Shown: in pieces, positions 2,832 to 17,593 of the stretch
How positions within the stretch are numbered: position 1 is the stretch's first letter
Layout: every line of letters starts with the position of its first letter
Virus genome (UHGV): UHGV-1834291
Source of the DNA: a virus
DNA: 17,593 nucleotides
Direction: 5' to 3' (one strand)
The notes under the pieces: model-generated
What the model was told of the DNA's origin: nothing
The model's database searches: none
Seen by the model: the letters and a program-made list of their open reading frames with translations, nothing else
Position numbers and translations under genes: made by a program

Positions 2832-3439
2832 GCGGCCTCACTTCTGCTATTTCGCAGGTCTTTGAGTTTCTGTTGGTACTCTGCCTTGATCGCCTTGCAC
2901 TCTTCGACAGTCCAGCGATGGCGGTTATGGTTTGATTCGATTTCGTCTACTGCTTCCTGCCCGATTCGGTTAATCAGTTCGACGCGATACGGAACGAGAT
3001 TTCCGCTTTTATGCTGGTTGCACACCACGCATTGCTTGTGAATATTGCGTTCATCAAATCGGAGTTGAGGTGCCGCAGCAGTTGTCCTGTAATGTCCAGC
3101 ATCCCACTGAGCAGACGTGAGCGTTCCGCACGAGATACATGGTAAGTCGCGGTCTCTTTCTCTGATGAAGGCGTTTACGGCTTGAGCCAAGTGTTTAATC
3201 CAGTAACTGCGGGGCTTTAAGGCGAGTTTTCGAATCTTAAGTTTATCTTTCTGTTTCTGCTCCTCTCGTCGTCGTTTCTTCTCTGCTGCTTTTTCCGCTT
3301 TTTCGCGTTCTTTACTTCGTCGTTCGAGTGCTATCTTGGCTCCACACTCTGGAGAGCACCACCACTGATTAGCGAATGTAGGGTGAAACCATTCCCGACA
3401 TTCTTCGTTTTTACATCGTCTTCGCGCTGGTTTAGCCAT
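2828..3439 (-). CDS. ninG: NinG / Rap recombination-associated endonuclease
   Basis: 203-aa ORF with Cys-rich N- and C-terminal clusters and K/E/R-rich linker, lambda NinG-like; start overlaps ninF stop. Confidence 0.9.
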
Positions 3440-3608
3440 CGTCTTCTTCCTCGTACATTGAGCTATTCGGATCGCTCATCAGTTCTGCGCAGCAATCGGA
3501 GCACACATGAACTTCCAGCACATGCAGCTTCTGACCGCAGTTAGCGCACGTTAAAGCTCGCTCGACGCTTTCTTTCTGGTATTGAAGGGATTGGGATGGG
3601 CTAAGCAT
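3432..3608 (-). CDS. ninF: NinF
   Basis: Not in ORF track (58 aa). Minus-strand translation from ATG 3606-3608: [58 protein letters not shown], matches lambda NinF as recalled; stop 3432-3434. Confidence 0.8.
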
Positions 3609-3988
3609 TATTGGATTCTCTGCATCATGAGAAAGACAATCATGGCTGCGCGGAGAGGGTTGTCATCAAGAGTAATATGCTCACCAAAGCTATCAGCCTC
3701 CCACCATGACACTGCTTTCATGCCAGGGTTTGCTCGCTTGTATGCACATACGCTGATCATGTTTTCCATGATAATCGGCCATGCGTCTGCTGGGTTTGCG
3801 CATGGGTTAAAGGAACCGCGCTCAACTTCTACTTCAACTGCGTCTCCGTTTACAATGTCTCCCTCAAATGAGACAAACACCATATCGCCATTCTCACCTT
3901 CTTTGTAATCCGGTGATCCGTTATGAATGGCTTCGAATACCGCCACGTTAATTTCAAAATCACTTAACTGTGAATAATCCATTGTCAT
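3608..3988 (-). CDS. Hypothetical nin-region protein, 126 aa (occupies the P22 NinX position between ninE and ninF)
   Basis: Track ORF trimmed to ATG 3986-3988, which overlaps the ninE stop (ATGA); protein [24 protein letters not shown]...; no recognised motif; identity as NinX is positional only. Confidence 0.6.
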
Positions 3989-7959: not shown

Positions 7960-8154
7960 CTATTTGTTTTTCTTGTTGCTTGGGAAAGGACGAACTTCCT
8001 CTCCAATCACACTGCCATCAGGCTTTACCGTAACCATGATGTTACGGCCTGCCAGAATGGCCTTGCTGATAGCGCACTGGATTACACCAAAGTCACTGGC
8101 TGCTTTAGCCTGTCCATGGATTTTGGCGTAATCGGCAAGTGTCATTCGAATCAT
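7960..8154 (-). CDS. cro: Cro repressor (lambda Cro-like)
   Basis: Start at ATG 8152-8154 with RBS GGAGA; [62 protein letters not shown] aligns with lambda Cro ([21 protein letters not shown]...FPSNKK). Confidence 0.85.
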
Positions 8155-8183
8155 ATGCACTCTCCGTTATTAACCATGAACAA

Positions 8184-8254
8184 AGAATACTACAGGTATT
8201 CAAAGCAATCAATACTCAGGGTATTTTTAGTTTAAGTACCTTAGCTATTAGAAT
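8184..8254. promoter_or_regulatory. Right operator region: OR1, OR2, OR3 with divergent PR and PRM
   Basis: 17-bp palindromic sites gaatactacaggtattc (8185-8201), caatactcagggtattt (8210-8226), weaker aagtaccttagctatta (8234-8250), centres 24-25 bp apart. PR (minus) TTGATT-17-TATTCT overlaps OR2/OR1; PRM (plus) weak -35 and TAGAAT -10 at 8249-8254, cI ATG at 8261 suggests a leaderless mRNA. Confidence 0.75.
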
Positions 8255-8260
8255 TAAGCT

Positions 8261-8977
8261 ATGGAAAATAAAAAATCACTGACGACAGAACAGCTCGAAG
8301 ACGCTAAGCGGCTTAAGGCTTTGTATGAGTCAAAAAAGAAAGAATTGGGAATAACCCAATACTCAATCGCTGATGAACTGGGTATCACCCAAGGAGCGGT
8401 AGGGCATTATCTTAATGGCAGAAACGCGCTAAACGTTGAGGTCGCATCTGGTTTTGCACGTTTGTTGCAAGTCTCAATTGCTGATTTTAGCCAGTCAATT
8501 GCTGCCAAGGTTGCAGAACAGGCAGAAAGCCTTAAGAGCGATGCCAACGTAAGGTATGCAGGGGAATACAGAGCAGGAAAGAGGTATCCGGTGTTAAGCA
8601 GTATCCAGGCTGGCTCGTGGTGTGAAGCATGCGAACCATACACCATTAAAGACATAGATGTTTGGCTTGAGTCTGACGCGCATATTCAAGGTAATGCGTT
8701 CTGGCTTAAAGTGGAAGGTGATTCAATGACGGCACCGGTTGGGTTAAGCATTCCAGAGGGAACATTCGTTCTTTTCGATACCGGAAGGGAGGCGATCAAC
8801 GGCAGCTTGGTCATAGCAAAACTTTCTGACTCTAACGAAGCAACATTCAAGAAGCTGATAATCGACGGCGGAAATAAATACCTCAAGGGACTTAATCCTG
8901 CATGGCCTCTCGTGCCAATCAATGGAAACTGCAAGATTATAGGCGTTGCAATTGAGACAAAACTAAGGCTGGTTTGA
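8261..8977 (+). CDS. cI: CI-type prophage repressor (HTH_XRE N-domain, S24 LexA-like autopeptidase C-domain)
   Basis: 238 aa; HTH ITQYSIADELGITQGAVGHYLNG; C-domain with catalytic Ser (GDSM) and Lys (FKKL) and an Ala-Gly candidate cleavage site; divergent from cro across the operator region. Confidence 0.9.
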   Translation: MENKKSLTTEQLEDAKRLKALYESKKKELGITQYSIADELGITQGAVGHYLNGRNALNVEVASGFARLLQVSIADFSQSIAAKVAEQAESLKSDANVRYAGEYRAGKRYPVLSSIQAGSWCEACEPYTIKDIDVWLESDAHIQGNAFWLKVEGDSMTAPVGLSIPEGTFVLFDTGREAINGSLVIAKLSDSNEATFKKLIIDGGNKYLKGLNPAWPLVPINGNCKIIGVAIETKLRLV

Positions 8978-8994
8978 TCACGCAAGGGGCGATT

Positions 8995-9363
8995 ATGGTT
9001 GGAACCGCTATAGCAAGCTTTTTTGGGATGTTGGCAATCTCGACAATTTACGGCTTAGCGCATGCTTTTATTGCGAAATCTCTATCAGAAAAAATAAGCC
9101 AGGCTTGGGCGCATAGATCAGCTCGTTTCATGATTCTGGTGATCATAGCAATACAAGGGATATCTGCATTTATCCTCTATGGATCAAGCTTATACCTATT
9201 GTATCAAGGCGCGACATTTACGCCTTACACCAGTGATTACGGAACTCTATACGATGGTAGTGAAGACATCACTGTGGCTTGGATCGTCTTTGGTTTATCT
9301 ATGGCCGTGTCTGTTGTAGCAGACATCATTAAGGTAATTCTCGTCTTAACCTTCGCTGACTAA
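8995..9363 (+). CDS. Small membrane protein (122 aa, three predicted TM helices) directly downstream of cI; function unknown
   Basis: ATG 8995 with RBS AAGGGG 6 nt upstream, 18 nt after cI stop; MVGTAIASFFGMLAISTIYGLAHAFIAK...; three long hydrophobic stretches; occupies the rexAB-equivalent slot between cI and OL. Confidence 0.6.
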   Translation: MVGTAIASFFGMLAISTIYGLAHAFIAKSLSEKISQAWAHRSARFMILVIIAIQGISAFILYGSSLYLLYQGATFTPYTSDYGTLYDGSEDITVAWIVFGLSMAVSVVADIIKVILVLTFAD

Positions 9364-9448
9364 CCTATAATCCCGGCAGCAATAGCTATCGGGATCCACT
9401 TCACATATCCCGCATAAAAAGCACTGAACAAGCAGACACCGAAAAAAT

Positions 9449-9536
9449 AAATATCCTTTGTATTCATTTGCTTATCATTATTTCACCAAAAATAAATACC
9501 TTGGGTATTTACACAATAAAATACCTACAGTATTCT
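9449..9536. promoter_or_regulatory. Left operator region: OL1-OL3 with PL
   Basis: Sites aaatacctacagtattc (9519-9535), aaataccttgggtattt (9494-9510), aaatatcctttgtattc (9449-9465), same AATAC-N5-GTATT family as OR; PL TTTACA (9508-9513)-17-TATTCT (9531-9536) reading toward N. Confidence 0.7.
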
Positions 9537-9581
9537 TTAGCCATCAGCAGGACGCTGGAAGCCAAACGGAACAGATTGGCA

Positions 9582-9623
9582 GGCTCTTTAACATTGATGG
9601 GATTGTCCCGCCGAAATGCGGGA
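9582..9623 (+). promoter_or_regulatory. nutL: boxA plus boxB hairpin
   Basis: ggctctttaaca (9582-9593), 12 nt, then tcccgccgaaatgcggga (9606-9623); boxB identical to the nutR copy. Confidence 0.8.
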
Positions 9624-9730
9624 ACCAAAGAGTAGTTGGCTTTGGGGTGACGTGAAGTGCAGCTGCACGACGGCAACCGGAAGATAAGCACCTGGCGCGT
9701 CACCGCCAAAGTCAATCATCGGAGGTCAAC

Positions 9731-10003
9731 ATGACAGTAGTCATTACATATCTGGCTGACGATAACGCCAGAAATCGCCGCAGAGCACGCAGACAGGCTC
9801 AACGTGAACAGGCAATGCAAGAGCAGCGACTGGCGCGAAAAATTGCGCTAAAGCTCTCTGGTTGCGTCAGAGCAGATAAAGCAGCATCACTCGGAAGCCT
9901 TCGCTGCAAGAAGGCAGATGAATGCAATGGAAGTATTTGCCTGCCAAACGTAGCTATTTACGCGGCAGGCTACCGGAAATCAAAACAACTGACAGCGAGG
10001 TAA
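9731..10003 (+). CDS. N: N-type antitermination protein (arginine-rich motif; P22 gp24-like C-terminus)
   Basis: 90 aa; N-terminal Arg-rich motif DNARNRRRARRQAQREQ; C-terminal AAGYRKSKQLTAR resembles the P22 gene 24 C-terminus as recalled; first gene after PL/nutL; RBS GGAGG. Confidence 0.8.
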   Translation: MTVVITYLADDNARNRRRARRQAQREQAMQEQRLARKIALKLSGCVRADKAASLGSLRCKKADECNGSICLPNVAIYAAGYRKSKQLTAR

Positions 10004-10006
10004 GTG

Positions 10007-10231
10007 ATGAATCAGACATACATTCCATCATGCTTGAGAAATCTGCCAAAGCAGAAAGCAAAGCCCCGCAAGCAAGCCATAAAGGACGCTAAGGCAGATG
10101 TTATTGATCAAGCAATACAATTGCTCAGGGAGGAGTTAAGAAGTGGCAAGCTCGAAGGAATGATGATGTCCTATCAGCGCGGATATCTATCGGCGATTAG
10201 TAAGTTGGAAGTATTGAAGAGTGAATTATGA
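10007..10231 (+). CDS. Hypothetical protein, 74 aa, basic N-terminus
   Basis: ATG 10007 (GTG 10004 possible) 3 nt after N stop, RBS GAGG; MNQTYIPSCLRNLPKQKAKPRKQAIKDAKADVIDQAIQLLREELRSGK...; no recognised motif. Confidence 0.45.
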   Translation: MNQTYIPSCLRNLPKQKAKPRKQAIKDAKADVIDQAIQLLREELRSGKLEGMMMSYQRGYLSAISKLEVLKSEL

Positions 10232-10288
10232 ACTATCTGGAATTTCCGGATGGTTCATTGTTTTGGCAGCAAGCCACAGAGGTGATAT

Positions 10289-10375
10289 ATGGAAGAAGAA
10301 TTTGAAGAGTTCGAAGAGCATCCGCAGGATGAGATGGAACAATACCAGGACTATCCGTATGACTACGACTATTGA
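10289..10375 (+). CDS. Candidate 28-aa highly acidic/aromatic peptide overlapping the ral start
   Basis: ATG 10289, MEEEFEEFEEHPQDEMEQYQDYPYDYDY, stop 10373-10375; 17-nt overlap with ral in another frame; could be non-coding. Confidence 0.3.
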   Translation: MEEEFEEFEEHPQDEMEQYQDYPYDYDY

Positions 10376-10559
10376 TAAGAATCAATGGTGTGGACAATTC
10401 AAGCGATGCAATGGATGCAAGCTGCAATCGGAATGCATGGTTAAGCCTGAAGAAATGTTTCCTGTAATGGAAGATGGGAAATATGTCGATAAATGGGCAA
10501 TACGAACGACGGCAATGATTGCCAGAGAACTTGGTAAACTGAACAACAAGGCTGCCTGA
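10359..10559 (+). CDS. ral: Ral restriction-alleviation protein
   Basis: Trimmed to ATG 10359: MTTTIDKNQWCGQFKRCNGCKLQSECMVKPEEMFPVMEDGKYVDKWAIRTTAMIARELGKLNNKAA (66 aa), near-identical to lambda Ral from memory. Confidence 0.9.
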   Translation: MTTTIDKNQWCGQFKRCNGCKLQSECMVKPEEMFPVMEDGKYVDKWAIRTTAMIARELGKLNNKAA

Positions 10560-10582
10560 TGGTGGCCTTTATTTTCTTATTT
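10548..10582 (+). terminator. Candidate intrinsic terminator immediately after ral
   Basis: aaggctgcc / ggtggcctt 9-bp stem (two G-U) with tgat loop containing the ral stop codon, followed by tattttcttattt. Confidence 0.5.
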
Positions 10583-10595
10583 GAGAGGAATTAAT

Positions 10596-11219
10596 ATGTC
10601 ATCAATCCGCTTAACTACGAGAATGAAAGAGGAAATCGCTCGTAACGCTTTAATTAAGTCTGGGGTTTTCACTGAGCTTGAAGAAGTAACAAAGTTAAAG
10701 AACCAGCTTGCACTTGACGCCAGAGTTATTGCGTTTGGCGGTAAAAAGAAAACTGAGGAAGTGGATCAGTTATCATCCAAGTTGGTAGCTATAAGTGAAG
10801 AACTTGGAAAGATGGGATGTTCATTTTACTCATACGATTTTCGTTCTACTTCAATTTATCTGACTGTATCTGGCAGAAGGGTTGGATGGCATTCATATGG
10901 AAAAGACGGCAACGGCGAAGATATATTGCTCCCTACTCCGACCAGAGATAAATGCATGTTTGACGCAGAACACGAAATAACAAAAAGGTTTGATGAAATC
11001 TGCGCATTGCAACAAAAACTTGAAGTCAAGAAAAAGGATATCGAATCAAATGTATGGGCTGCTTTGAACTCAGTCACAACAGTTAAGCGACTCATTGAAG
11101 TTTGGCCTGAAAGCAAAGAATTGCTACCAAAAGAAGCAGATAAAGCAAGTACAGCACTTCCTGCTTTACGGGTAGAGGATTTGAATAAGATGATTGGACT
11201 TCCTTCCGAGGCCGCATAG
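10596..11219 (+). CDS. Hypothetical soluble protein, 207 aa; unknown function
   Basis: ATG 10596 with RBS GAGAGGA; MSSIRLTTRMKEEIARNALIKSGVFTELEEVTKLKNQLALD...; no TM segments or recognised catalytic motif; bracketed by terminators; occupies the slot where lambda/P22 carry sieB. Confidence 0.6.
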   Translation: MSSIRLTTRMKEEIARNALIKSGVFTELEEVTKLKNQLALDARVIAFGGKKKTEEVDQLSSKLVAISEELGKMGCSFYSYDFRSTSIYLTVSGRRVGWHSYGKDGNGEDILLPTPTRDKCMFDAEHEITKRFDEICALQQKLEVKKKDIESNVWAALNSVTTVKRLIEVWPESKELLPKEADKASTALPALRVEDLNKMIGLPSEAA

Positions 11220-11291: not shown

Positions 11292-11351
11292 GGAGCAATG
11301 TCGCTCGTAACTAAACAGGAGCCGACTTGTTCTGATTATTGGAAATCTTCT

Positions 11352-11380
11352 TTGCCCTCCAGTGTGAGGGCAATTTTTTT
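11352..11380 (+). terminator. Strong intrinsic terminator 12 nt upstream of the 322-aa gene start
   Basis: Perfect 8-bp stem ttgccctc / gagggcaa, 6-nt loop, then T7 (11374-11380); RBS GGAGG and ATG 11393 follow directly. Confidence 0.8.
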
Positions 11381-11392
11381 GACGGAGGATAT

Positions 11393-12361
11393 ATGAGTGA
11401 AGTAACAGATTTAGTTGTTATTGAAAAAGCAAATGCAATGACTGTATTTCAGTCTGCAGACCAGATTGAAGAAATCCTTCAAAAGGTTGAACGTGAAGTT
11501 ATGTCCTTTGTGCCTGATATCACAACGGCAAAGGGCAGAAAGGAGATCGCTTCTCTGGCGTATAAAGTTGCGCAGACGAAAACATATCTCGATGGTCTTG
11601 GCAAAGACCTTGTTGCTGAACTGAAGGAAATTCCAAAGCTAATTGATGCCAACCGCAAGACAGTGCGTGATCGCCTTGATGAGCTGAAAGCCAAGGCGCG
11701 CCAGCCTCTTACTGATTATGAGGAGGAACAGGCACGGATTAAAGCCGAAGAAGAAGCTAAGGCAGCAGCTGAAGCTCTCGCAAAGCAAATTGAGTCTGAC
11801 CATGAAATAGCGATTTTGATGGATCGCGAATTTGACCGCCAAAGAGAAGAGGCAAGACTCAAAGCGGAGCGGGAAAAGCGAGAGCATGAAGAACGCTTAA
11901 AAAGAGAAGCTGAAGAGAGAGCCAGAGCAGAAGCCGAAGCAAAGGCAAAAGCCGAAATTGAAGCAGCAGCAAGGCGAGAAGCAGAAGCTAAGGCCGCAGC
12001 GGAACGTGCAGAGCGTGAACGCATTGAAGCCGAGCAACGAGCACAGCGCGAAGCAAAAGAGGCAGCAGAACGAGCTGAAAGAGAAAAGCAGGCGGCAATT
12101 GAAGCAGAACGCCGAAAAGCACAGGAGGAGGCTGAACGAATCCGGCGCGAGGCTGAAGCAAAAGAGCAAGCCAGAATAGCAGAAGAAAAAAGAATCAAGG
12201 AAGAAGAAGAGCGTAGAGCAAAGGATAAAGCTCACCGGAAAGAAGTAAATAACAAAATACTTGCTGACCTTATCAAGGTTGGCGCATCAGAAGATGTTGC
12301 TAAAAATATCATAACAGCTATCGTAAAAGGCGAAGTATTCGCAACAAAAATAACCTACTAA
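11393..12361 (+). CDS. Hypothetical protein, 322 aa, with ~160-aa E/R/K/A-rich predicted single alpha-helix / coiled-coil domain
   Basis: ATG 11393 after RBS GGAGG; globular N-terminal ~120 aa (MSEVTDLVVIEKANAMTVFQSADQIEE...), then repeats of EAEAKAKAEIEAAARREAEAKAAAERAERE..., short C-terminal domain ...IITAIVKGEVFATKITY. Confidence 0.7.
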   Translation: MSEVTDLVVIEKANAMTVFQSADQIEEILQKVEREVMSFVPDITTAKGRKEIASLAYKVAQTKTYLDGLGKDLVAELKEIPKLIDANRKTVRDRLDELKAKARQPLTDYEEEQARIKAEEEAKAAAEALAKQIESDHEIAILMDREFDRQREEARLKAEREKREHEERLKREAEERARAEAEAKAKAEIEAAARREAEAKAAAERAERERIEAEQRAQREAKEAAERAEREKQAAIEAERRKAQEEAERIRREAEAKEQARIAEEKRIKEEEERRAKDKAHRKEVNNKILADLIKVGASEDVAKNIITAIVKGEVFATKITY

Positions 12362-16242: not shown

Positions 16243-16434
16243 ATGACCGATACCAGCCTGATTCCTGAGAAAGAAGTGATGAACAAGCTCGGTGTTTCAT
16301 CACGTCAGACAATCTGGAACTATACCAAACGGCACGGATTTCCGAAGCCAGTCAGAACCCACCCCAAATCATACCTTCGTGAAGCTGTTGAGGGGTGGAT
16401 TCTTAACGGTGGCGTTAATCAGAAATGCTCCTGA
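16243..16434 (+). CDS. xis: Excisionase-like small DNA-binding protein (Xis)
   Basis: 63 aa, basic, adjacent to integrase; RBS GGAGA 6 nt upstream; 3' end overlaps the convergent int 3' end by 20 bp. Confidence 0.65.
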   Translation: MTDTSLIPEKEVMNKLGVSSRQTIWNYTKRHGFPKPVRTHPKSYLREAVEGWILNGGVNQKCS

Positions 16435-17593
16435 TGTGCCAGAACAATTTATCAGCGTGAAGCTCATACGCTTTGCGCTGAGCCTCTATCCAGTCGTGTT
16501 TATTGTATACGGACATTATCCCGCCAAGTTCATGACCGAGCATTCGCTCAGTAACATGAGGCTCGACATTCATCTCGGACAGACGTGTAACAAGCGTTCT
16601 TCTGAAATCATGTGTTCGCCAGTAACCTAGATCCATCCCTCCCCTTATTCTATTTACGAATCGGTTGGCTGCAGCGATGCTGATCGGTTTGTTTATGTCT
16701 TCTCCAGGGAAAAGAACATCATTGTACGTTGTCATGGCCTTTTCGAGAAAAGGCTTAATTTGTTCGAAGATTGGACGACGGATAACATTACCCATCTTGC
16801 TATGCTCTTTCGGTACGGTCCATACGTTGTCCAGCAGGTCAAATTCTGTCTTTGTTGCCAGCCTAAGCTCTGAGAGCCTCGCCCCCCACAGCATAAGCAT
16901 CTGATGAAGGAGCTTATTTGACGTAGACGCACGGCTTCTTTCAATAGCAAGCCAAATCTTAGCCAGTTCGTGATACGACAGTACCCGATCCCCTACCTCA
17001 GCGCGGGAGCCGAAGTCCCTTGGCTGGATGCTCATAATTGCGCAACTATCTATCAACTGACGCCGCATGCACCAACTAATTGCTGATCTTAGTTGACTTA
17101 GCACCTGCCTTGCTCGGCGTGGATTATCTTTTTCTTCTTCGGTAAGCAGGTCAACCCATTGCTTAACCGTGATAGAAGATGCCGGACGATTAGGGAAGGC
17201 GTCATGCATGCGCTTCATAACCGTTGATCGGTAAAGTGCCTGGGTCTTTTCTCTGAGAGTTGTAGAGACGTAGTTGTCGAACCAGTAGTCGAGACACTGG
17301 GCGACCGTCATGGAGTTCTCCACCTTCTCTTCAAAATAAGTGCGTGGATCCGTTCCTGAGAAATAGAGCTTTCGCAAGTCAGCAGTGATCTGTCTGGCAT
17401 CCTTCAAAGACAGGGATGGGTATCGACCAAGCCCAAGTCGATTAGGCTTGCCATGCCAGCGATAGCGGTACTGGAACTGGATGACCCCCTTCGGTGAAAT
17501 TCGTACGCTGAGGCCATCAGCATCAGCCACTTCTTGTGGGCCCGAATATGGTTTACCATAAATAGTACGCAGTTTTGTGTCGCTTATAGCCAT
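16415..17593 (-). CDS. int: Tyrosine site-specific integrase (P4-type architecture)
   Basis: 392 aa; catalytic-domain motifs GARLSELRLATKTEFD (Arg box), THDFRRT (H-x-x-R) and LGHELGGIMSVYNKHDW (catalytic Tyr); start codon is the last three bases of the window. Confidence 0.95.
   Translation of the reverse strand: MAISDTKLRTIYGKPYSGPQEVADADGLSVRISPKGVIQFQYRYRWHGKPNRLGLGRYPSLSLKDARQITADLRKLYFSGTDPRTYFEEKVENSMTVAQCLDYWFDNYVSTTLREKTQALYRSTVMKRMHDAFPNRPASSITVKQWVDLLTEEEKDNPRRARQVLSQLRSAISWCMRRQLIDSCAIMSIQPRDFGSRAEVGDRVLSYHELAKIWLAIERSRASTSNKLLHQMLMLWGARLSELRLATKTEFDLLDNVWTVPKEHSKMGNVIRRPIFEQIKPFLEKAMTTYNDVLFPGEDINKPISIAAANRFVNRIRGGMDLGYWRTHDFRRTLVTRLSEMNVEPHVTERMLGHELGGIMSVYNKHDWIEAQRKAYELHADKLFWHIRSISD

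What the first reader, a model, noticed from the sequence alone, without database searches (positions are those of the whole stretch)
8978..9448. Lysogen-expressed three-TM membrane protein in the rexAB-equivalent slot directly after cI
A 122-aa protein with three long hydrophobic helices starts 18 nt after the cI stop with its own RBS and ends before OL, so it should be co-transcribed with cI from PRM in the lysogen. In lambdoid phages this slot carries exclusion or abortive-infection genes (lambda rexA/rexB, others in other phages). I do not recognise the sequence as any family. A cccggcagc...gctatcggg hairpin (9369-9394) follows the gene. This is my top candidate for an undescribed prophage-encoded phage-exclusion or membrane-acting toxin function.
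Basis: partly seen in the sequence, partly recalled or inferred. Interest (0 to 1): 0.72.

Follow-up and report, generated by a model that had tools for sequence, protein, structure and literature searches.

The report
Orphan membrane protein gene after cI
Directly behind the repressor gene of this lambda-like prophage sits hkaS, a real, conserved gene for a small three-helix inner-membrane protein; it was named in phage HK620 in 2001, its function has never been determined, and it is a reasonable but unproven candidate for a phage-exclusion factor made by the lysogen.

Summary
ATG 8995 to stop 9363 (+) encodes a 122-aa protein 17 nt after the cI stop, with an AAGGGG ribosome-binding site. It has three predicted transmembrane helices (AlphaFold2 pLDDT 92) and ends 85 nt before the first operator-like site of OL. 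A stable hairpin follows at 9370-9395.

The gene is already catalogued. It is hkaS of coliphage HK620 (product "unknown"), PHROG 6534 (unknown function), and is called "hypothetical" in every source checked.

The family is tiny: 12 clusters among 5.8 billion proteins and 2 representatives among 1.84 billion. It occurs in E. coli, Salmonella, Enterobacter and Hafnia, and in every locus examined it lies right after one cI type. It is under purifying selection (dN/dS 0.13-0.2) but diverges faster than cI or cro.

No sequence, profile or fold search links it to RexB, SieA, SieB, HK97 gp15, holins or any PADLOC, Pfam or NCBIfam family.

cI relatives at 76-78% identity carry different cargo in the same slot, including an MqsA-antitoxin module. 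This fits the published view of cI-N as an accessory-gene hotspot (rexAB, bstA).

Co-transcription with cI is well supported by anatomy. The exclusion or toxin function is only inferred from position and membrane location. Interest is moderate.

The parts
8185..8250 (.). OR1-OR3 operators and the divergent PR/PRM region between cro (7960-8160, -) and cI
   Evidence: AATACN5GTATT matches at 8186-8200 (0 mismatches), 8211-8225 (0) and 8235-8249 (2). They correspond to OR1-3 annotated in the HK620 record.
8261..8977 (+). cI repressor gene (238 aa, HTH_3 + Peptidase_S24), first gene of the lysogenic operon
   Evidence: Pfam PF01381 8e-10 and PF00717 5e-24. 99.6% identical to HK620 cI.
8984..8989 (+). 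Ribosome-binding site AAGGGG of hkaS, inside the 17-nt cI-hkaS spacer (8978-8994)
   Evidence: Read from the sequence. AAGGA/AAGGGG lies 5-8 nt before the ATG in Salmonella, Hafnia and a metagenomic lineage, with spacers of 17-20 nt.
8995..9363 (+). hkaS: 122-aa three-transmembrane-helix protein (PHROG 6534, function unknown). Predicted topology: N-terminus out; cytoplasmic loop 28-44 with an amphipathic helix; periplasmic Tyr/Asp-rich loop 71-93 with a beta-hairpin; C-terminus in.
   Evidence: ORF. HK620 hkaS at 99.2% amino-acid identity. PHROG 6534 at 2.4e-79. AF2 pLDDT 92. Hydropathy and charge distribution. Family alignment with invariant Q54, D110, K113 and C-terminal ILVLTFAD. dN/dS 0.13-0.20.
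9370..9395 (+). Stem-loop 7 nt after the hkaS stop (AUCCCGG.CAGC/GCUA.CCGGGAU type). Candidate 3'-end or terminator element of the cI-hkaS transcript.
   Evidence: -13.7 kcal/mol, z = -4.1. Hairpins of unrelated sequence occupy the same position in Salmonella L003 and metagenomic L007. The Hafnia version has G>A, turning a G.U into an A-U pair. It has no U-tract and was not called by the terminator scan.
9396..9448 (+). C-rich, G-poor untranslated tail between the hairpin and OL (possible Rho-loading region; inference)
   Evidence: C/G ratio is 1.9 over 9364-9448 against 1.0 for the whole window. The equivalent stretch in three other lineages gives 1.5-3.0. GC skew is negative here.
9449..9465 (.). 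Operator-like site AAATATCCTTTGTATTC, probably the real OL3
   Evidence: One mismatch to AATACN5GTATT. Conserved in the Salmonella, Hafnia and metagenomic loci. The HK620 record places 'tIMM' here, but the segment does not fold (-0.6 kcal/mol; 94 of 200 shuffles fold as well).
9494..9536 (+). OL2 (9494-9510), OL1 (9519-9535) and PL (-35 TTTACA 9508, -10 TATTCT ending 9536)
   Evidence: Perfect operator matches. The only promoter-like site in 8100-9800. HK620 annotation.
9731..10003 (+). N antiterminator gene, first gene of the PL operon; marks the far side of the cI-N slot
   Evidence: Pfam N_peptide 1.2e-15 and PHROG 271 5e-34.

Best explanation
hkaS is the second gene of the cI operon of an HK620-immunity lambdoid prophage. 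It is transcribed from PRM in the lysogen, and from PRE during establishment, and translated from its own Shine-Dalgarno site. The product is a 122-aa inner-membrane protein with three transmembrane helices: N-terminus periplasmic, a basic amphipathic cytoplasmic loop, an acidic Tyr-rich periplasmic loop, and a cytoplasmic C-terminus.

Its most likely role is that of a lysogen-expressed accessory protein that protects the lysogen against other phages at the inner membrane. The leading mechanism is interference with genome entry of superinfecting phages, in the manner of P22 SieA, T4 Imm or HK97 gp15, but with an unrelated protein.

Shown here: the gene is real; it has operon anatomy; the protein is a membrane protein; it is conserved under purifying selection; it is an orphan family; and the slot is variable. 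Inferred: transcription with cI, topology, and the entire functional assignment.
For: Gene reality and operon anatomy:
- The 17-20 nt spacer with an SD site is conserved in every lineage, and no promoter or terminator lies between cI and hkaS.
- hkaS follows a 238-240-aa cI in all 10 loci fetched by protein identity.
- It is present in all 64 IMG/VR loci whose cI is at least 87% identical and that have downstream sequence.
- Flanking N and replication modules differ between these loci, so cro-cI-hkaS travels as one cassette.

Precedent for expression: the cI-bstA pair of BTP1 is one operon from a single transcription start even with an 88-bp gap. The cI-N interval is described as a common site of accessory loci, including rexAB (PMC7067206; PMC8585504).

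Slot variability shown here: cI relatives at 76-78% identity carry instead a three-gene module with an MqsA-type antitoxin and its own promoter, or a convergent signal-peptide protein.

Membrane protein: AF2 pLDDT 92 with three long helices. Four K/R in loop 28-44 against four D/E and no K/R in loop 71-93.

Selection: dN/dS is 0.13-0.20, yet HkaS is only 50-83% identical where cI is 85-95% and Cro 79-92%. This is compatible with an arms-race target.

Other points: it is carried by phages with different virion types, including Lederbergvirus HK620 and Lambdavirus HK630. Single small inner-membrane proteins expressed from prophages that have been characterised, such as P22 SieA (PMC10883804), act by blocking DNA delivery.
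Against: There are no experimental data for hkaS, and no paper on its function was found.

There is no similarity to any defence family: PADLOC 0 hits; hhalign probabilities below 1% against RexB, SieA, SieB and gp15; fold searches give only generic helical bundles.

The gene is strictly linked to one cI type across deep divergence rather than coming and going like a typical moron. GC content shows no foreign signature.

The best-conserved surface is cytoplasmic: loop 28-44, the cytoplasmic half of TM3 and the C-terminus. That is not what one would first expect for a protein that obstructs an injection channel from the periplasmic side.

Faster divergence than cI could simply reflect lower constraint on transmembrane segments.
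Confidence: 0.4

Rival explanations
1. HkaS is an abortive-infection effector. It is a latent pore or depolariser in the inner membrane, RexB-like or holin-like in effect, which opens when an infecting phage is sensed and kills the cell before progeny are made.
For: It occupies the same slot as rexAB and bstA, both abortive-infection systems. Its size and three-helix N-out/C-in topology resemble class I holins (holin topology from general knowledge). Invariant polar residues lie inside the membrane: Q54 in TM2 and the D110/K113 pair in TM3. A conserved cytoplasmic amphipathic helix could receive a trigger.
Against: No sensor partner gene lies between cI and OL. hhalign probability against RexB is 0.7%, and RexB has four helices. 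No holin family appears in PHROGs or Pfam at E up to 1. The charged C-terminal tail typical of holins is absent, as the protein ends three residues after TM3. Nothing indicates toxicity.
Confidence: 0.2
2. HkaS is a lysogenic-conversion protein unrelated to phage defence. It would be a small membrane protein that alters host physiology or protects against membrane-acting toxins such as pore-forming colicins, or that modulates a transporter or stress response.
For: Prophage genes expressed in lysogeny include many non-defence functions and many unknowns (PMC7067206). Three-helix proteins of about 110 aa are also the format of pore-forming colicin immunity proteins (general knowledge). The gene is widespread in commensal, animal and pathogenic E. 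coli and in Salmonella, Enterobacter and Hafnia.
Against: No Pfam or NCBIfam match to colicin-immunity or any transporter-accessory family at E up to 1-10. It is never found on plasmids or away from the phage immunity region.
Confidence: 0.2
3. HkaS serves the phage's own regulatory circuit. It would be a membrane-anchored modulator of the lysis-lysogeny decision or of induction, for example by acting on FtsH/HflKC-dependent CII turnover, rather than serving as an accessory gene.
For: Co-inheritance with this cI/Cro/operator set is strict across lineages in which HkaS itself has fallen to about 50% identity. It would also be made from PRE during establishment. The most conserved parts face the cytoplasm, where FtsH and CII act. 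GC content shows no moron-like discontinuity.
Against: Closely related cI proteins with a near-identical C-terminal domain work without hkaS. P22 and other lambdoid switches have nothing in this position. Tight linkage is expected anyway from a 17-nt spacer.
Confidence: 0.12
4. The ORF is not a functional gene. It would be either a chance open frame or a decaying remnant.
For: No homologue has a known function, and the family is very small.
Against: Length is conserved at 122 codons with no gaps. There are 43 invariant positions across sequences down to 52% identity. dN/dS is 0.13-0.20 with synonymous sites saturated. An SD site is conserved and the structure prediction is confident.
Confidence: 0.02

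Closest known systems
HkaS of coliphage HK620 (AAK28867.1; PHROG 6534), also in HK630, HK140, mEpX2, HF4s, phi296/phi367, 611R6, HZ41 and two Stx2c phages
   Same: It is the same gene: 98.9-99.8% nucleotide identity over cI-hkaS-OL and 99.2% amino-acid identity, in the same position between cI and OL.
   Different: Nothing of substance differs. The family is annotated 'unknown' or 'hypothetical' everywhere, so membership gives no function.
Lambda RexB (with RexA), the abortive-infection pair after cI
   Same: It lies immediately downstream of cI, upstream of OL/PL, in the repressor operon. It is a small polytopic inner-membrane protein.
   Different: No sequence or profile similarity (hhalign probability 0.7%). 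HkaS has three helices rather than four. There is no rexA-like partner, and the slot holds a single gene.
P22 SieA (also T4 Imm, HK97 gp15): prophage- or phage-encoded inner-membrane proteins that block DNA delivery
   Same: A small inner-membrane protein made in the lysogen from a single gene. This is the functional model I consider most likely (PMC10883804).
   Different: No similarity to SieA or gp15; T4 Imm was not compared directly. The genomic position differs: sieA sits next to gene 16 with its own promoter, and gp15 sits in the tail genes. The function of HkaS is untested.
BstA of Salmonella prophage BTP1
   Same: It has the same architecture: an accessory gene directly downstream of cI, transcribed from the cI promoter, in the cI-N hotspot.
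   Different: BstA is described as acting at sites of phage DNA replication, not as a membrane protein (abstract). HkaS is a 122-aa transmembrane protein matching no Pfam family above threshold.
Class I holins (lambda S type) and pore-forming-colicin immunity proteins
   Same: About 105-120 aa with three transmembrane helices. Holin S105 is N-out/C-in, like the prediction here (general knowledge).
   Different: No family match. There is no charged C-terminal tail. It is not in a lysis cassette or a colicin operon. It is expressed, by inference, in the lysogen.

Membership tests
HkaS / PHROG 6534 (function unknown) | Full-length sequence match to the family profile | tested here: met
   phrog_6534 at E 2.4e-79 over residues 1-122 of 122. 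99.2% amino-acid identity to HK620 HkaS.
HkaS / PHROG 6534 (function unknown) | Position directly after an HK620-type cI, before OL/PL and N | tested here: met
   True in the window and in all 10 identity-fetched loci. Also true in all 64 IMG/VR loci with cI at least 87% identical and downstream sequence available.
Lambda RexAB abortive-infection system | Homology of the membrane component to RexB | tested here: not met
   hhalign of the HkaS alignment against lambda RexB gives probability 0.7%. No RexB family appears in the Pfam or PHROGs scans at E up to 1.
Lambda RexAB abortive-infection system | Two-gene system with a cytoplasmic sensor (RexA) encoded next to the membrane protein | tested here: not met
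   Only one conserved ORF lies between cI and OL. The 35-aa minus-strand ORF at 9360-9467 is not conserved.
Lambda RexAB abortive-infection system | Located in the cI operon between cI and OL | tested here: met
P22 SieA-type superinfection exclusion proteins | Sequence homology to one of the SieA types | tested here: not met
   hhalign against P22 SieA gives probability 0.3%. Only the P22 type was tested directly; no other PHROG matched at E up to 1 apart from weak noise.
P22 SieA-type superinfection exclusion proteins | Inner-membrane protein that blocks DNA delivery by superinfecting phage | not testable with these tools
   Membrane location is predicted only. Exclusion requires plating and DNA-entry assays.
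HK97 gp15 and P22/lambda SieB | Sequence homology | tested here: not met
   hhalign probabilities are 0.2% for gp15 and 0.1% for SieB.
Known anti-phage defence systems (PADLOC-DB v2) | Match to any defence-protein model | tested here: not met
   0 families at E up to 10.
Class I holins | Three transmembrane helices, N-out/C-in | tested here: inconclusive
   Three helices are predicted with confidence. Orientation rests only on the positive-inside rule.
Class I holins | Charged cytoplasmic C-terminal tail, a holin family signature and location in the lysis cassette | tested here: not met
   The protein ends FAD three residues after TM3. No holin hit in Pfam or PHROGs. The gene is in the immunity region.
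Intrinsic (Rho-independent) terminator for the hairpin at 9370-9395 | GC-rich stem followed by a U-tract | tested here: not met
   The stem is stable (-13.7 kcal/mol), but the tail is AUCCACUU and the scan did not call it. The same lack of a U-tract is seen in three other lineages.

The most novel reading that the evidence does not exclude
HkaS may not be a generic moron. It could be a membrane-embedded partner of this particular immunity switch, kept with one cI/Cro/operator set while diverging to about 50% identity. It would couple a membrane or envelope signal, such as an injection attempt or envelope stress, to prophage maintenance or induction. Alternatively, it could act as a one-protein sensor-plus-effector defence of a kind not represented in current defence catalogues.
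Probability: 0.1. Interest if true: 0.7.

Novelty: new member of a known kind. Interest (0 to 1): 0.38.

Why it matters
The interval between the repressor gene and PL is the most reliably expressed accessory site of lambdoid prophages. It has already yielded RexAB and BstA.

HkaS is an orphan family that sits there in about 2.7% of complete E. coli genomes, and also in Salmonella, Enterobacter and Hafnia prophages, including Stx2c-converting phages. No function has been assigned to it in 25 years.

If it excludes or aborts other phages, it would add a single-gene, 122-aa membrane defence that current catalogues miss. It would also be relevant to phage-therapy host range and to competition among Stx phages. 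The experiment is simple: one small gene, standard phage panels, and well-behaved model phages (HK620, mEpX2, HK630).

If it has no such phenotype, its strict linkage to one repressor type becomes the more interesting question.

Tried and rejected
1. The 35-aa hydrophobic ORF on the minus strand (9360-9467) was considered as a convergent small toxin or type I TA candidate. It overlaps the hairpin. I rejected it because the frame is absent in the Salmonella and metagenomic lineages, and the residual similarity in Hafnia merely follows the conserved hairpin DNA. It has no family hit.

2. The 'tIMM' annotated in the HK620 record maps to window 9445-9475. I rejected it as a terminator because it folds at only -0.6 kcal/mol, no better than shuffles, and it matches the operator consensus.

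3. The TTG 8974 start (129 aa), used by some gene callers, overlaps the cI stop. I rejected it in favour of ATG 8995, which is conserved with an SD site in all lineages.

4. Three N-terminally aberrant database entries (P0006, P0007, P0009) look like frameshift or mis-start variants. I left them out of the profile.

6. Rfam found nothing in the window at gathering thresholds, and only a noise hit in 8900-9760.

7. Literature searches used HkaS, HK620+hkaS, mEpX2, HK620+exclusion, 'downstream of cI' and general prophage-defence terms. None found a functional study of this gene. Clark et al. 2001 and Cumby et al. 2012 are not in the held library.

8. There is no composition-based evidence of foreign origin. 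GC is 0.42-0.44 in hkaS against 0.46 in cI.

Full report
**What is there**

On the + strand the window reads as the 'leftward' side of a lambdoid immunity region:
- cro, 7960-8160 (-)
- three OR operators
- cI, 8261-8977 (+; HTH_3 + Peptidase_S24)
- a 17-nt spacer
- a 122-codon ORF, 8995-9363 (+)
- OL/PL
- N, 9731-10003 (+)

It is preceded by AAGGGG at 8984-8989. Between cI and the ORF there is no room for a terminator or promoter. The consensus scan found only PL (9508-9536) in 8100-9800.

**Identity**

The 821-bp stretch 8900-9720 is 98.4-99.8% identical to HK620, HK630, HK140, mEpX2, HF4s, phi296, phi367 and HZ41. The GenBank record of HK620 calls the ORF hkaS, product 'unknown'. It places the gene between cI and a 'tIMM; termination of cI transcript', so the depositors already regarded it as part of the cI transcript.

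The protein matches PHROG 6534 (unknown function) end to end at E 2.4e-79. It matches no Pfam family above threshold (best hit E 0.0035, well below the gathering score) and nothing in NCBIfam, PADLOC or PDB sequences.

It occurs in 16 of 50,697 phage records, 0 plasmids and 146 of 5426 complete E. coli genomes. It is always chromosomal and always 'hypothetical protein'. The exact sequence is on at least 1000 contigs, none carrying an informative name.

**Is it a real gene?**

Yes. A word-indexed search of 5.8 billion proteins returned 12 clusters. An exhaustive profile search of 1.84 billion representatives returned only 2, so this is a genuine orphan family.

Members from E. coli, Hafnia, Salmonella, Enterobacter and metagenomes are 52-98% identical. 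All are 122 residues without gaps, with 43 invariant positions. Nei-Gojobori dN/dS is 0.13-0.20 where synonymous sites are not saturated.

**Structure and topology**

AlphaFold2 on the 7-sequence alignment gives pLDDT 92.1 and pTM 0.79. The model has helices 2-29, 31-38, 41-73 and 89-121, with a small beta-hairpin in the 74-88 loop.

Hydropathy shows three membrane-spanning segments. Loop 28-44 carries 4 K/R, whereas loop 71-93 carries 4 D/E and no K/R. The positive-inside rule therefore puts the N-terminus outside, loop 1 in the cytoplasm, loop 2 in the periplasm and the C-terminus inside. This orientation is an inference.

Conservation is highest on the predicted cytoplasmic face, across loop 28-44 (KISQAW.H..ARF), the D110..K113 pair in TM3 and the terminal ILVLTFAD. 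A second conserved patch, YLLYQGATF.PY, lies at the periplasmic end of TM2.

**Context in relatives**

In every locus fetched through diverged HkaS proteins, the gene lies 17-20 nt after a 238-240-aa cI, with an SD site, and before N. The N, replication and recombination modules on either side differ between loci. This covers Salmonella, Hafnia and metagenomic lineages.

I fetched 80 IMG/VR loci through the cI protein:
- All 64 with cI at least 87% identical and downstream sequence available have hkaS; one further locus ends 3 nt after cI and could not be scored.
- All 15 with cI at 76-78% identity lack it.

The cI relatives that lack hkaS have a near-identical C-terminal domain but a different N-terminal region, and carry other cargo:
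- a self-promoted three-gene module whose middle gene is an MqsA-type antitoxin (PF15731, 8e-19);
- or a hairpin followed by a convergent gene for a signal-peptide protein;
- or something else again.

The slot is therefore variable between immunity types, as published for lambdoid phages (Degnan 2007, as cited in PMC8585504 and PMC7067206). Within the HK620 immunity type, hkaS is fixed.

Between the same pairs of loci, cI is 85-95% and Cro 79-92% identical, but HkaS only 50-83%.

**The 3' end**

Stable hairpins of unrelated sequence occupy the same place in two other lineages. The Hafnia version differs by a change that improves a pair. The structure therefore appears to be maintained rather than the sequence.

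None of these hairpins has a U-tract, and the scan does not call them terminators. The untranslated tail is C-rich and G-poor in all four lineages (C/G 1.5-3.0 against 1.0 for the window). This is compatible with Rho-dependent termination plus a protective 3' hairpin, but that is inference.

The 'tIMM' of the HK620 record maps to 9445-9475. It does not fold and instead matches the operator consensus with one mismatch (9450-9464), so it is more probably OL3.

**Comparison with known systems**

Profile-profile comparisons of the HkaS alignment with lambda RexB, P22 SieA, P22 SieB and HK97 gp15 all give probabilities below 1%.

RexB has four helices and needs RexA, whereas here there is one gene. 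The only other ORF in the interval, a 35-aa hydrophobic frame on the minus strand, is not conserved. BstA shares the architecture (downstream of cI, one operon) but is an unrelated protein.

**Mechanism**

What can be said with confidence is anatomical. HkaS is a small polytopic inner-membrane protein whose gene is built to be expressed whenever cI is.

From there I commit, at about 0.4, to a lysogen-protecting function at the inner membrane, with blockage of incoming phage genomes as the leading mechanism. The basis is threefold:
- This is what the characterised single-gene prophage inner-membrane proteins do (SieA: PMC10883804).
- The slot is used for anti-phage cargo in lambda and BTP1.
- The protein evolves faster than its neighbours.

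The rivals are an abortive-infection pore (0.2), a non-phage lysogenic-conversion role (0.2) and a role in the phage's own switch (0.12). The last draws some support from the strict linkage to one cI type and from the cytoplasmic location of the best-conserved surface. None of these can be separated computationally.

**Verdict**

The finding is a well-posed experimental lead rather than a surprise. Specialists expect unknown accessory genes after cI, and this is one more, albeit an unusually isolated and well-conserved one.

Noticed in passing
window 9449-9465 (and 9445-9488): AAATATCCTTTGTATTC matches the operator consensus of this immunity type with one mismatch and is conserved in Salmonella, Hafnia and metagenomic relatives. 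The HK620 GenBank record instead annotates 'tIMM' over this stretch and puts OL3 at the equivalent of 9472-9488, which matches the consensus poorly. The OL3 and tIMM annotations of HK620 are probably misplaced.
   Followed up: partly
window 9360-9467 (-): A 35-aa strongly hydrophobic ORF (MNTKDIYFFGVCLFSAFYAGYVKWIPIAIAAGIIG) lies convergent with hkaS, starts inside the OL3-like site and covers the hairpin. It is not conserved as an ORF in diverged lineages, so it is probably spurious.
   Followed up: yes
L080, L085-L087, L090 (about 3250-4862 in L085): Behind a 76%-identical cI, the same slot holds a self-promoted (TTGACA-17-ATAATG) three-gene module of 141 aa (no Pfam), 205 aa (zinc-ribbon MqsA_antitoxin, PF15731 8e-19) and 159 aa (no Pfam). 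It is a candidate TA-like or defence cassette in the cI-N hotspot.
   Followed up: partly
L077-L079, L081, L083, L084, L088, L089 (just after cI, about 3220-3640): Another cI relative is followed by a GC-rich hairpin with a T-run (GGGGCGTTTGCGCCCTCTATTT). Next comes a convergent minus-strand gene whose product, by my reading of the reverse strand, begins with a signal-peptide-like sequence (MRLLVAAAALALPMVANA...). This is a third kind of cargo for the slot; I did not run a translation or family search on it.
   Followed up: no
window 10221-11219 (+): Downstream of N lie a Ral antirestriction domain (PF11058, 1e-47; the listed 112-aa ORF probably starts further in) and a 212-aa Nmad5 'nucleotide modification associated domain 5' protein (PF18757, 7.6e-71). 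This differs from the hkaQ/hkaP content of HK620 at this position.
   Followed up: no
window 11339-12361 (+): A 340-aa ORF has a long, highly charged E/A/R/K-rich low-complexity central region (…AEAEAKAKAEIEAAARREAEAKAAAERAERE…) and no Pfam match.
   Followed up: no
window 16415-17593 (-): A tyrosine integrase (Arm-DNA-bind_3 + Phage_integrase) is encoded on the minus strand. This is opposite to the PL operon that runs towards it, unlike the int orientation in lambda and P22. It runs to the window edge.
   Followed up: no
window 9458-9655 (+): The HK630 record annotates a 65-aa 'hypothetical protein' across OL, PL and nutL. Given the regulatory sites it covers, this is almost certainly a gene-caller artefact.
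   Followed up: partly
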